Below, piece after piece: positions 1-3,000 of a stretch of 7,298 nucleotides of DNA. The DNA is from a virus. Lineage: Duplodnaviria; Heunggongvirae; Uroviricota; Caudoviricetes. The position numbers are program-made. Each line of letters opens with the position of its first letter. The first letter of the stretch is position 1. The stretch lies in the IMG/VR virus record IMGVR_UViG_2534681994_000011. One strand, given 5' to 3'.

Positions 1-3000
1 AGTATCATGTGAAATCCAACTATCCTTCTGAGCCAGCACCTCTCCACCGAAAGTCAGTGCTGGCTGTTTTTTTCCTTAATAAAGCATCTGTAACTGGTTG
101 TTGTTCTGCGGGTTCTGTTCTTCGTTGACATGAGGTTGCCCCGTATTCAGTGTCGCTGATTTGTATTGTCTGAAGTTGTTTTTACGTTAAGTTGATGCAG
201 ATCAATTAATACGATACCTGCGTCATAATTAATTATTTGACGTGGTTTGATGGCGTAGATGCACGTTGTGACATGTAGATGATAATTATTATCATTTTGC
301 GGGTCCTTTCCGGCGATCCGACAGGTTACGGGGCGGCGACCTCGCGGGTTTTCGCTATTTATGAAAATTTTCCGGGATCCATGTCCGGTTTCTCTTCAAG
401 TTAACTATATGAAAAATATAAAAACAGGTCTTCTGTGAACCGGACATGAACAAAAAACAGACATGTAAACCGGACATGACCGGTTTTGTTGTGATTGTGA
501 GGTGAGAGTTTTTGCGAGGTGAGGAGTGGCTACGCAGACTGAAGTTGCCAGGCATTTAAGTCTGACCGATCGCCAGCTTCGCAGATTGCAGAAATTGCCG
601 GGTGCCCCGATATCGAATAAGCGAGGGCAACTGGATCTGGATGCCTGGCGCGATTTTTACATATCGTATCTGAGGAGAAGTAAAAACGATGTGCCTGATG
701 GCGATAGCGAAGACGACTATGAGGAGAAATTGCTTATTGCCAGATGGGAACTGACAGCAGAACAGGCTGTTACACAGCAGTTAAAAAATGAGGTGTCAAA
801 AGGAAAACTGATTGACACCGGGTTCTGTATTTTTGCCCTCAGTAAGCTGGCAATGGCGTTATCCAGTACGCTTGATTCCATCCCTTTATCCATGCAGCGA
901 CAGTTTCCTGATTTAACACCGCGCCATCTTGACCATCTGAAAACCCTTATTGCTAAGGGGGCAAATCAGTGTGCGCGGGCAGGGGATAAATTACCGGATT
1001 TACTTGATGAATATATCAGAGCAACAACTGAATAATATGATGAGCGCTGTCACAACTGCATTACAGCCCCTGATAAGGGCATTGCCGGTGACGCCAGTTG
1101 AATGGGCTGATCAAAATTATTATCTGCCTAAAGAATCTTCATATGGTGAGGGCGAATGGAAAACGCTGCCATTCCAGATCGCCATCATGAACAGTATGGG
1201 GAATGATCAGATCCGCACTGTTAATCTGATTAAATCTGCCCGTGTTGGCTATACAAAGATGTTGCTGGGGGGGGGGCGGGTATTTTATTGAGCATAAATC
1301 CCGAAACAGTCTGCTTTTTCAGCCCACGGATTCTGCCGCTGAAGATTTTATGAAGTCTCACGTGGAGGCGACGATTCGGAACGTGCCATGCCTGAAAGAC
1401 CTTTCCCCATGGCTGGGTCGTAAACATCGTGACAATACTCTCACGCTGAAACGCTTTTCATCGGGCGTCGGTTTCTGGTGCCTGGGCGGCGCTGCCGCCA
1501 AAAACTACCGTGAAAAATCCGTTGACGTGGTCTGCTATGACGAACTTTCCTCGTTCGAGCCGGATGTCGAAAAAGAGGGCTCGCCAACCCTGCTGGGGGA
1601 TAAGCGTATTGAGGGGTCGGTGTGGCCAAAATCCATTCGCGGCTCGACGCCTAAAATCAAAGGCACCTGCCAGATCGAAAAAGCCGCTAACGAGTCGGCG
1701 CATTTTATGCGTTTTTATGTGCCCTGCCCGCACTGTGGGGAGGCGCAGTATCTGAAATTTGGCGATGAGTCCACGCCTTTTGGGCTTAAATGGGAGAAGG
1801 ACAGCCCTGAAAGTGTTTTCTACCTCTGTGAACATCATGGCTGCGTGATCCATCAGTCTGAACTGGACCAGAGCAACGGGCGGTGGATCTGTGAAAACAC
1901 GGGCATGTGGACCCGTGACGGTCTGACGTTTTTCAGCGCCCGGGGTGATGAAATTCCGCCGCCGCGCTCCATCATGTTCCATATCTGGACGGCGTACAGT
2001 CCGTTCACCACCTGGGTACAGATTGTCTATGACTGGCTGGATGCACTGAAAGATCCCAACGGCCTGAAAACCTTTGTGAACACCACGCTGGGCGAGACCT
2101 GGGAAGAGGCCGTGGGCGAAAAACTCGATCACCAGGTACTGATGGATAAGGTGGTGCGTTACACGGCGGCGGTGCCTGCCCGGGTGGTTTATCTGACGGC
2201 GGGCATTGACTCGCAGCGAAACCGTTTTGAGATGTATGTCTGGGGATGGGCTCCGGGAGAGGAAGCCTTTCTGGTGGATAAAATCATCATTATGGGGCGT
2301 CCTGATGAGGAAGAGACGCTGTTACGTGTGGATGCGGCGATCAACAAAAAATACCGCCATGCGGATGGCACCGAAATGACTATTTCCCGTGTCTGCTGGG
2401 ACACCGGGGGGATCGATGGTGAAATTGTTTATCAGAGATCAAAAAAACACGGTGTTTTCCGGGTGCTGCCGGTAAAAGGCGCATCTGTCTATGGCAAGCC
2501 GGTGATCACCATGCCAAAAACCCGCAATCAGCGGGGCGTGTATCTGTGTGAAGTGGGAACGGACACCGCAAAAGAAATTCTCTATGCCCGTATGAAAGCC
2601 GATCCCTCGCCTGCGGATGAAGCCACGTCGTATGCCATCCGTTTTCCTGATGATCCGGAGATTTTTTCGCAGACAGAGGCGCAGCAACTGGTGGCGGAAG
2701 AGCTGGTGGAGAAGTGGGAAAAAGGAAAGATGCGTCTGCTGTGGGATAACAAAAAGCGGCGTAACGAAGCGCTGGACTGCCTGGTGTATGCCTACGCGGC
2801 ATTACGTGTGTCCGTGCAACGCTGGCAGCTTGATCTGGCTGTACTGGCAAAATCCCGGGAAGAAGAGACGACCCGGCCAACCCTGAAAGAACTGGCAGCG
2901 AAGCTGTCCGGAGGAGTGAATGGTTACAGTCGCTGAACTGCAGGCGCTGCGTCAGGCGCGCCTTGATTTATTAACCGGTAAACGGGTGGTGTCTGTCCAG

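What the first reader, a model, noticed from the sequence alone, without database searches (positions are those of the whole stretch)
1259..1291. Large terminase gene split by a +1 frameshift inside a 10-G homopolymer
Similarity to gpA runs in frame 2 up to ...SARVGYTKMLLGGG and resumes in frame 0 at YFIEHK...; the two frames meet in the G10 run at 1267-1276. Deleting one G restores a full-length reading frame with the same spacing as lambda gpA. The break falls just after the KSARVGY(S/T)K segment, which I recall as the deviant Walker A/P-loop of the lambda packaging ATPase, so the prophage as read cannot make a functional terminase. Three explanations are open: a homopolymer sequencing error, a genuine inactivating slip in a decaying prophage, or a reversible slipped-strand switch. 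G9/G10 tracts are unusual in enterobacterial coding DNA, so the intact G9 form would itself be a mutational hotspot.
Basis: partly seen in the sequence, partly recalled or inferred. Interest (0 to 1): 0.6.

Follow-up and report, generated by a model that had tools for sequence, protein, structure and literature searches.

The report
Variable poly-G tract breaking prophage terminase
The large terminase gene of a defective lambda-like prophage of E. coli O157:H7 is really broken by one extra G in a 10-G run, and this run varies in length (mostly 9 or 10 G) between O157 strains, which is ordinary slippage decay in an already crippled prophage rather than a new mechanism.

Summary
A G10 run at 1267-1276 splits a lambda gpA-type large terminase gene, and removing one G gives a 642-aa protein collinear with its homologues.

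The window is identical to the Sp4-type prophage of E. coli O157 strain 350. G10 is not a one-off error. The exact 80-nt context occurs in 174 complete genomes, including both copies in EC4115 and TW14359, and the peptide it encodes is indexed in 1886 assembly blocks, mostly short-contig assemblies.

The in-frame G9 allele also exists: 194 complete genomes, and both paralogous prophages Sp4 and Sp14 of Sakai. All four G9/G10 combinations at the two loci occur. Peptides corresponding to G7, G8, G11 and G12 are also on record.

Non-O157 relatives carry an interrupted GGGGGTGGTC (Gly-Val-Val-Gly). Two T>G changes created the run, and slippage then changed its length.

The prophage is defective anyway, because a 2.5-kb deletion fuses capsid gene E to tail gene V.

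Best reading: a neutral, recurrent slipped-strand polymorphism in a decaying gene. I found no evidence for programmed recoding or for a selected switch. Interest is low to moderate.

The parts
331..342 (+). cosN-like 12-mer GGGCGGCGACCT, the lambda cohesive-end sequence
   Evidence: Read directly. Its identity with the lambda cohesive end is from my own knowledge. Asadulghani 2009 (PMC2669165) reports identical cos sites in Sp4 and Sp14.
380..478 (+). cosB-like region with three AACCGGACATG boxes: 380-390 inverted, 438-448 and 467-478
   Evidence: the repeat finder. That these are small-terminase binding sites is inferred by analogy with lambda R sites.
526..1035 (+). Small terminase subunit gene (Nu1 family), intact in this window. 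The site 781-788 is where ISEc8 is inserted, with an 8-bp duplication, in Sakai and EC4115 Sp4.
   Evidence: Pfam Phage_Nu1, E 1e-18. ISEc8 junctions from the blast and the annotations.
1007..1291 (+). 5' fragment of the large terminase gene (94 codons plus TGA). It carries KSARVGYTK and ends out of frame five codons after the tract.
   Evidence: The 94-aa product is indexed in 1886 blocks of public assemblies.
1267..1276 (+). G10 homopolymer, the frameshift site. G9 is the in-frame allele.
   Evidence: Alleles compared.
1277..2936 (+). 3' part of the large terminase gene in frame 0: the rest of the ATPase domain, including VDVVCYDE, and the nuclease domain. The mechanical ORF runs 1242-2936.
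2920..6594 (+). Intact head genes: W (2920-3126), portal B (3123-4715), S49 protease/scaffold C (4705-6210) and decoration protein D (6247-6594)
   Evidence: Pfam gpW, Phage_portal_2, Peptidase_S49 and HDPD.
6652..6918 (+). Remnant of major capsid gene E, first ~84 codons. The deletion junction lies at about 6893-6902.
   Evidence: Pfam Phage_cap_E positions 1-80 of 329. Blast against the intact relative L005 shows a jump from 6806 to 9318. RefSeq notes 'missing C-terminus'.
6915..7298 (+). Tail tube gene V, running off the window and joined directly to the E remnant. E 3', FI, FII, Z and U are deleted.
   Evidence: Pfam Phage_TTP_12, E 3e-62. Intact relatives carry E, FI, FII, Z and U in between.

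Best explanation
The window is the head-gene region of the Sp4-type defective lambdoid prophage of E. coli O157:H7. Its large terminase gene (terL, lambda gpA family) carries a lineage-specific poly-G tract.

The tract was created when the ancestral CTG GGG GTG GTC GGG (Leu-Gly-Val-Val-Gly) acquired two T>G transversions. These joined G5 and G2 into G9 (CTG GGG GGG GGC GGG, Gly-Gly-Gly-Gly), just after the Walker A segment. Replication slippage on this long G:C run then added one G, giving the G10 seen here. That shifts the frame and terminates translation five codons later, so no full-length terminase is made from this copy.

The tract has changed length repeatedly in the O157 lineage, at both paralogous copies (Sp4 and Sp14). 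The head module is already dead: a 2.5-kb deletion removes most of E, plus FI, FII, Z, U and the start of V, and in most strains ISEc8 sits in the Sp4 nu1 gene. I therefore infer the length changes are effectively neutral drift.

Shown: the anatomy, the allele series and its distribution. Inferred: slippage as the mechanism, neutrality, and that the Gly-Gly substitution itself reflects relaxed constraint.
For: (1) Anatomy: G10 at 1267-1276, and removing one G restores a 642-aa gpA-type protein.

(2) Source: the window equals strain 350 chromosome 1253175-1260472, a prophage with sodC and tccP2 next to tRNA-Ser and hya, which is Sp4-type.

(3) G10 is reproducible. The exact 80-nt context is in 174 complete-genome records. 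More than 50 listed genomes have it in the Sp14-type copy. EC4115 and TW14359 have it in both copies. The 94-aa product is indexed in 1886 blocks, 1304 of which have a longest contig of 5-10 kb. In 9 of 10 sampled places the DNA is true G10.

(4) G9 exists and is annotated intact. The exact 79-nt context is in 194 records. Sakai Sp4 and Sp14 are both G9. The exact 642-aa product is on 982 contigs.

(5) Other lengths: contigs encoding the exact products expected of G7 (5), G8 (52), G11 (98) and G12 (30).

(6) All four locus combinations occur: Sakai G9/G9; strains 272 and 2017C-4109 G9/G10; FRIK2533 G10 at Sp4 and G9 at the other copy; EC4115, TW14359 and strain 155 G10/G10.

(7) Hotspot: the tract is the single difference in 35,996 aligned bases between FRIK2533 and FRIK2455.

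(8) Origin: the closest intact relatives (96.5-98.6% identity) have GGGGGTGGTC, encoding GVVG. That allele is exact in 870 records. The intermediate G8TC (GGVG) is exact in 9 records. None of the 120 best protein homologues has GGGG, and V89 is nearly invariant.

(9) Decay context: the E-V deletion, and ISEc8 in the Sp4 nu1 gene (PMC2669165). In-frame lengths are not enriched: G10 is at least as common as G9, and G11 is more common than G12.
Against: Contig and record counts are not phylogenetically independent, because O157 is clonal, so the number of separate slippage events is unknown. Gene conversion between Sp4 and Sp14 could move alleles without a new slip.

Some tract lengths in long-read-only assemblies may be miscalls. 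The FRIK pair differs only at this tract, in opposite directions at the two loci, which could be biology or polishing error.

The exact-peptide count for 'G10' also captures a rare +1 variant of the ancestral allele (G6TGGTC, L022).

Neutrality is inferred, not measured. Asadulghani et al. proposed that the Sp14 terminase packages Sp4 DNA in trans (PMC2669165), so the gene might still matter.
Confidence: 0.8

Rival explanations
1. Homopolymer sequencing or assembly error: the true sequence of this strain is G9 and the gene is intact.
For: The window matches a long-read-era assembly (strain 350), and long G runs are error-prone. FRIK2533 and FRIK2455, which are otherwise identical over 36 kb, differ only at the tract, and in opposite directions at the two copies. 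Several draft or long-read assemblies show extra breaks further down the same gene.
Against: Identical G10 is found in 174 complete genomes from many groups, including both copies of EC4115 and TW14359. The 94-aa product it encodes is indexed in 1886 blocks, about 1,790 of them with a longest contig under 10 kb. Closely related genome pairs agree with each other, for example Z563/Z903, NCCP 13892/13894 and 2010C-3142/2009C-4687. So the allele is real, and only the call for this one record is open.
Confidence: 0.07
2. Selected phase-variable (contingency) switch: reversible G9/G10 slippage turns the cos-cognate terminase of Sp4 and Sp14 on and off. This would gate helper-dependent packaging of these effector-carrying defective prophages.
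For: The tract lies inside the ORF. Both ON (G9, G12) and OFF (G7, G8, G10, G11) lengths occur at both loci. In Sakai, where both copies are G9, Sp4 DNA is packaged although its own nu1 gene is disrupted. The authors attribute this to the Sp14 terminase (PMC2669165).
Against: The tract is not conserved. Relatives, including plaque-forming phages of the PhiR12 group, have interrupted sequences, and 870 genomes carry GVVG. In-frame lengths are not enriched. Genomes with both copies OFF exist. The G9 product replaces a nearly invariant Val with Gly next to the ATPase P-loop and may be impaired. No within-culture switching data exist.
Confidence: 0.08
3. Programmed recoding: full-length terminase is made from the G10 template by +1 ribosomal frameshifting on GGG GGG G, or by transcriptional slippage.
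For: Only the sequence logic supports it. A tRNA-Gly can re-pair perfectly one base downstream within the run, and the zero-frame codon after the run is CGG, which I recall as rare in E. coli (inference).
Against: No homologue needs a shift. The 120 best homologues are single in-frame ORFs, and G9 alleles of the same prophage are in frame. The zero frame ends after five codons with no distinct product. No stimulatory element is evident. G10 is a recent lineage-specific change, not a conserved site.
Confidence: 0.03

Closest known systems
Bacteriophage lambda terminase large subunit gpA (Pfam GpA_ATPase PF05876 + GpA_nuclease PF20454) in the lambda head-gene order cos-Nu1-A-W-B-C-D-E
   Same: Both Pfam domains are present. 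The KSARVGY(T/S)K and VDVxxYDE motifs are present. The gene overlaps nu1, with cos upstream. The W-B-C-D gene order is the same.
   Different: The ORF is interrupted by +1 G. Gly-Gly replaces Val-Tyr (lambda) or Val-Val (closest relatives) after the P-loop. The small subunit matches Nu1 only over its C-terminal two thirds.
Prophages Sp4 and Sp14 of E. coli O157:H7 Sakai (CP-933M and CP-933U in EDL933, by my recollection), described as defective by Asadulghani et al. 2009 (PMC2669165)
   Same: Window 96-7298 differs from Sakai Sp14 by one substitution plus the tract. The E-V deletion is the same. The flanks are those of Sp4.
   Different: Sakai has G9, annotated as intact terminase, at both loci, and that paper lists all lambdoid prophages except Sp4 as having intact terminase. 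This window has G10 and lacks the ISEc8 in nu1.
Slipped-strand homopolymer frameshifts, either as pseudogenising mutations or as phase-variable contingency loci (poly-G/C tracts of Neisseria, Haemophilus, Campylobacter; own knowledge)
   Same: A long intragenic G run, length polymorphism between strains, and both in-frame and out-of-frame states.
   Different: The tract is not conserved in the gene family. The gene sits in a dead head module. No phenotype is known and there is no sign of selection for switching.

Membership tests
Lambda gpA-type large terminase (TerL) | N-terminal GpA ATPase domain and C-terminal GpA nuclease domain | tested here: met
   PF05876 E 5.8e-54 (residues 48-293) and PF20454 E 1.6e-71 (324-601), scored on the one-G-deleted translation.
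Lambda gpA-type large terminase (TerL) | Walker A-like KSARVGY(S/T)K and Walker B/catalytic hhhhDE (VDVxxYDE) motifs | tested here: met
   K76-K84 and V172-E179 are present and invariant in 23 homologues. Their assignment as ATPase motifs is from recalled literature, not retrieved here.
Lambda gpA-type large terminase (TerL) | Lambda-type context: cos site, small-subunit gene overlapping the 5' end, then W, portal, protease and D | tested here: met
Lambda gpA-type large terminase (TerL) | A single uninterrupted ORF able to give a full-length enzyme | tested here: not met
   The frame breaks at G10 with a stop at 1289-1291. RefSeq marks it 'frameshifted'. In this window it is a pseudogene of the family.
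Phase-variable contingency locus (simple-sequence-repeat switch) | Intragenic homopolymer long enough to slip, with length polymorphism giving ON and OFF states | tested here: met
   G9 in 194 records and G10 in 174 records. Peptides for G7, G8, G11 and G12 are on record.
Phase-variable contingency locus (simple-sequence-repeat switch) | The repeat is maintained in orthologues or relatives, implying selection for mutability | tested here: not met
   Relatives carry the interrupted GGGGGTGGTC or other codons. That allele is exact in 870 records, and 0 of 120 protein homologues have GGGG.
Phase-variable contingency locus (simple-sequence-repeat switch) | High-frequency reversible switching within a clonal culture, with a selectable phenotype | not testable with these tools
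   This needs read-level or fluctuation data. The only hint is the FRIK2533/FRIK2455 pair, which differs solely at the tract, and that could be assembly error.
Programmed frameshift / transcriptional slippage recoding site | The shift site and the need to shift are conserved across homologues | tested here: not met
   All intact homologues and the G9 alleles are single in-frame ORFs.
Programmed frameshift / transcriptional slippage recoding site | A trans-frame product is detectable | not testable with these tools
   Requires a reporter assay or proteomics.
Sequencing artefact | Not reproducible in independent assemblies or platforms | tested here: not met
   G10 was recovered in 174 complete genomes, and its 94-aa product is indexed in 1886 assembly blocks, most with short contigs.

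The most novel reading that the evidence does not exclude
The G9/G10(/G12) tract works as a reversible mutational on/off switch on the only terminase that recognises the shared cos site of Sp4 and Sp14. Individual O157 lineages, or subpopulations, would then gain or lose the ability to package and spread these two effector-carrying defective prophages (tccP/tccP2, espJ, sodC, pch) using capsids supplied by other resident prophages.
Probability: 0.08. Interest if true: 0.55.

Novelty: new member of a known kind. Interest (0 to 1): 0.27.

Why it matters
There are three modest reasons.

1. It separates a real, heritable frameshift from an assembly error. It also flags one position in two O157:H7 prophages where tract length differs between otherwise identical genomes. 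That matters for outbreak SNP/indel pipelines and for pseudogene annotation.

2. It refines the published picture of the O157 'defective prophage pool'. The Sp14 terminase was assumed intact and proposed to package Sp4. It is out of frame in many strains, and in some (EC4115, TW14359, strain 155) both copies are out of frame. Helper-dependent mobilisation of Sp4 and Sp14 should therefore differ between lineages.

3. It gives a clean natural example of how a hypermutable homopolymer is born: two T>G substitutions join shorter G runs in a gene under relaxed constraint.

Tried and rejected
- AlphaFold2 on a 23-sequence alignment, to see whether residues 89-90 sit in the helix after the P-loop. 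The model was unusable (mean pLDDT 36, pTM 0.26), because the available homologues are all at least 78% identical.
- A sequence search of the PDB with the restored protein gave no hit at E <= 0.01.
- Literature searches for the Walker A string KSARVGYS, for lambda gpA K76, and for O157 homopolymer/terminase/slipped-strand reports found no paper that addresses this tract or documents the motif. The Walker A assignment therefore stays a recollection.
- I hypothesised that the G9/G10 'swap' between FRIK2455 and FRIK2533 came from an Sp4-Sp14 inversion. This is rejected. Both strains have the same Sp4 structure and flanks, and differ only at the tract.
- I hypothesised that the window was an Sp4/Sp14 recombinant, because it has Sp4 upstream sequence but an intact nu1. 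This is rejected. In strain 350 the whole prophage is Sp4-type and simply lacks ISEc8.
- Tandem Repeats Finder found nothing in the window.
- Exact-peptide counting turned out to be slightly impure. A +1 variant of the ancestral allele encodes the same 94-aa peptide.
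Full report
**Observation**

The window has one long homopolymer, G10 at 1267-1276. A run of 9 or more G is expected 0.15 times in shuffles of the window. It is the only such run in about 260 kb of related loci fetched.

An ORF starting at ATG 1007 overlaps the end of the upstream small-terminase gene. It reads ...NLIKSARVGYTKMLLGGGRVFY and stops at 1289-1291. 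The frame one base downstream reads GGGGYFIEHKSRN... and continues to 2936. Removing one G gives a 642-aa protein with Pfam GpA_ATPase and GpA_nuclease domains. This is the length of its intact homologues, with the same MLLG-xxx-YFIEHK spacing.

**What the window is**

The gene order is as follows:
- the lambda cohesive-end 12-mer (331-342) and three AACCGGACATG boxes
- a Nu1-family small subunit gene (526-1035)
- terL
- W, portal B, S49 protease/scaffold C and decoration protein D
- the first ~84 codons of major capsid gene E, fused directly to tail tube gene V

Intact relatives carry E, FI, FII, Z and U between these last two points. The window lacks about 2.5 kb there.

The window is identical to E. 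coli O157 strain 350 chromosome 1253175-1260472. That prophage carries sodC and a tccP2 pseudogene and lies next to tRNA-Ser and hya, which is the Sp4 position of Sakai. Most O157 genomes have ISEc8 inserted in the Sp4 nu1 gene, at window 781-788. This copy lacks it.

A near-identical paralogue, Sp14, lies elsewhere in the chromosome. Sakai Sp14 differs from window 96-7298 by one substitution and the tract, and it carries the same E-V deletion.

**Is G10 real?**

The exact 80-nt context with G10 occurs in 174 complete-genome records. All serotyped rows listed are O157(:H7). These include:
- EC4115 and TW14359, where both the Sp4 and the Sp14-type copies are G10
- more than 50 listed genomes with G10 in the Sp14-type copy

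The 94-aa product of the broken 5' part is indexed in 1886 blocks of public assemblies. Of these, 1304 have a longest contig of only 5-10 kb, which is typical of short-read assemblies. Nine of the ten places returned carry true G10. The tenth carries a +1 variant of the ancestral allele that happens to encode the same peptide.

Closely related genome pairs agree with each other. The allele is therefore genuine and heritable. For the single source record, a long-read miscall cannot be formally excluded.

**The in-frame form and the allele series**

The exact 79-nt context with G9 occurs in 194 records. These include both Sp4 and Sp14 of Sakai, where the gene is annotated intact. The exact 642-aa G9 product is on 982 contigs.

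| Expected tract | Product looked up | Contigs |
|---|---|---|
| G6 | 641 aa, in frame | 0 |
| G7 | 93-aa fragment | 5 |
| G8 | 114-aa fragment | 52 |
| G9 | 642 aa, in frame | 982 |
| G10 | 94-aa fragment | 1000 (tool's counting cap) |
| G11 | 115-aa fragment | 98 |
| G12 | 643 aa, in frame | 30 |

All four combinations of G9 and G10 at the two loci occur:
- Sakai is G9/G9.
- Strains 272 and 2017C-4109 are G9/G10.
- FRIK2533 is G10 at Sp4 and G9 at the other copy.
- EC4115, TW14359 and strain 155 are G10/G10.

FRIK2533 and FRIK2455 are identical over 35,996 aligned bases of Sp4 except for this tract. The two strains have the same structure here, so no inversion explains the difference. The tract is thus the most variable position in the region, or the most error-prone one.

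In-frame lengths are not favoured. G10 is at least as frequent as G9, and G11 is more frequent than G12.

**Origin of the tract**

The closest non-O157 relatives are 96.5-98.6% identical and have complete head modules. They read CTG GGG GTG GTC GGG TAT (Gly-Val-Val-Gly). Plaque-forming phages of the PhiR12 group read GGA GTC GCC GGG.

- The GVVG allele is exact in 870 complete-genome records, across many serotypes.
- An in-frame intermediate with one T>G change (G8-TC, Gly-Gly-Val-Gly) is exact in nine non-O157 records.
- None of the 120 best protein homologues has GGGG, and Val89 is nearly invariant.

So the O157 allele arose by two T>G transversions that joined G5 and G2 into G9, and it then slipped.

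Of the few O157-specific codon changes in terL, three are clearly non-synonymous: V89G, residue 90 to G, and E246A. This fits relaxed constraint but is weak evidence on its own.

**Mechanism and meaning**

The best-supported account is slipped-strand mispairing on a long G:C run in a gene that no longer matters for the prophage carrying it. The prophage cannot make capsids, head-completion proteins or a normal tail tube start. In most strains Sp4 also lacks a small terminase subunit (PMC2669165). Slippage as the mechanism and neutrality are inferences. The anatomy, the alleles and their distribution are shown.

One point keeps the gene from being wholly irrelevant. Asadulghani et al. found Sp4 DNA packaged in Sakai. 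Because the cos and Nu1 sequences are identical, they attributed this to the Sp14 terminase. Sakai is G9 at both loci. Strains with both copies at G10 should lack that activity unless revertants arise. Whether the GGGG protein works at all is unknown.

**Rivals**

- An artefact confined to this record: about 0.07.
- A selected phase-variable switch: about 0.08. It fails the test of tract conservation and shows no enrichment of in-frame states.
- Programmed +1 frameshifting or transcriptional slippage: about 0.03. No homologue needs a shift, and the site is a recent mutation.

**Comparison and novelty**

The gene is a pseudogenised member of the lambda gpA terminase family, inside the known defective prophage Sp4 of O157:H7. 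RefSeq already marks it 'frameshifted'.

I did not find three things described in the searchable literature: the length polymorphism at both paralogues, the genomes with both copies out of frame, and the stepwise birth of the run. These are a new instance of a well-known kind of event, not a new kind.

**Dead ends**

- The AlphaFold2 model was unusable.
- The PDB sequence search was empty.
- Papers documenting the Walker A assignment were not retrievable.
- The inversion and recombinant hypotheses were rejected.

Noticed in passing
window 6652-7298 (junction ~6893-6918): A ~2.5-kb deletion fuses the first ~84 codons of major capsid gene E to tail tube gene V. It removes the rest of E plus FI, FII, Z and U. 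The same deletion is present in both Sp4 and Sp14 of Sakai, so the head module was dead before, or independently of, the terminase slip.
   Followed up: yes
window 781-788: This is the site where ISEc8 splits nu1 in the Sp4 copy of Sakai, EC4115 and the FRIK strains; alignments either side of the IS overlap by 8 bp, consistent with a target duplication. The window is the rarer IS-free Sp4. Only five such genomes headed the list: strains 350, DEC4E and F6321 with G10, and strains 2571 and BB24-1 one base shorter.
   Followed up: partly
window 96-7298 versus L004 (Sakai Sp14, minus strand): Sp4 and Sp14 head regions are near-identical paralogues: one substitution (window 6318 C/A) plus the tract over 7.2 kb. 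Gene conversion between them could move tract alleles.
   Followed up: partly
L012 (FRIK2533) versus L013 (FRIK2455), 36 kb of Sp4: The only difference in 35,996 aligned bases is the tract, G10 versus G9. At the second copy of each genome the lengths are reversed. No inversion is involved. Real double change, gene conversion and polishing error are not distinguished.
   Followed up: partly
L022 (GCA_026134665.1, 5.01-Mb genome) position ~1750; proteins P0152, P0153, P0156: The ancestral, interrupted allele is also found frameshifted in its shorter G5 run. A +1 form (G6TGGTC) encodes the same 94-aa peptide as G10. A -1 form ('GWSG') occurs in an O55:H7 strain. So exact-peptide counts are not a pure proxy for G10.
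   Followed up: partly
E. coli genome hits H207-H213: An in-frame intermediate allele CTGGGGGGGGTCGGG (G8-TC, Gly-Gly-Val-Gly) is exact in nine complete-genome records. Those listed include one labelled O111:H11 and none labelled O157. It shows the first T>G step that lengthens the run.
   Followed up: partly
window 331-342 and 380-478: The lambda cohesive-end 12-mer GGGCGGCGACCT is followed by three AACCGGACATG boxes (one inverted, two direct). These look like cosB R sites for this non-lambda Nu1 variant.
   Followed up: no
window 96-375: This stretch, including the cos 12-mer, is 98-99% identical to the ylcI/ynfO region of cryptic prophages in K-12, BL21 and many other E. coli.
   Followed up: no
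window ~5640-6060 (C-terminal part of the S49 protease/scaffold ORF 4705-6210): Read by eye, the translation shows three divergent ~45-50-aa repeats (…GREQLA…M(S/T)VE(Q/K/S)AR(A/P)(I/V)LAA…). Tandem Repeats Finder found nothing at the DNA level.
   Followed up: no
L006 (strain UTAK-15) 912-2840: A close relative with the ancestral GVVG allele has its terL annotated with an internal stop. This is another independent way the same gene is lost in resident prophages.
   Followed up: no
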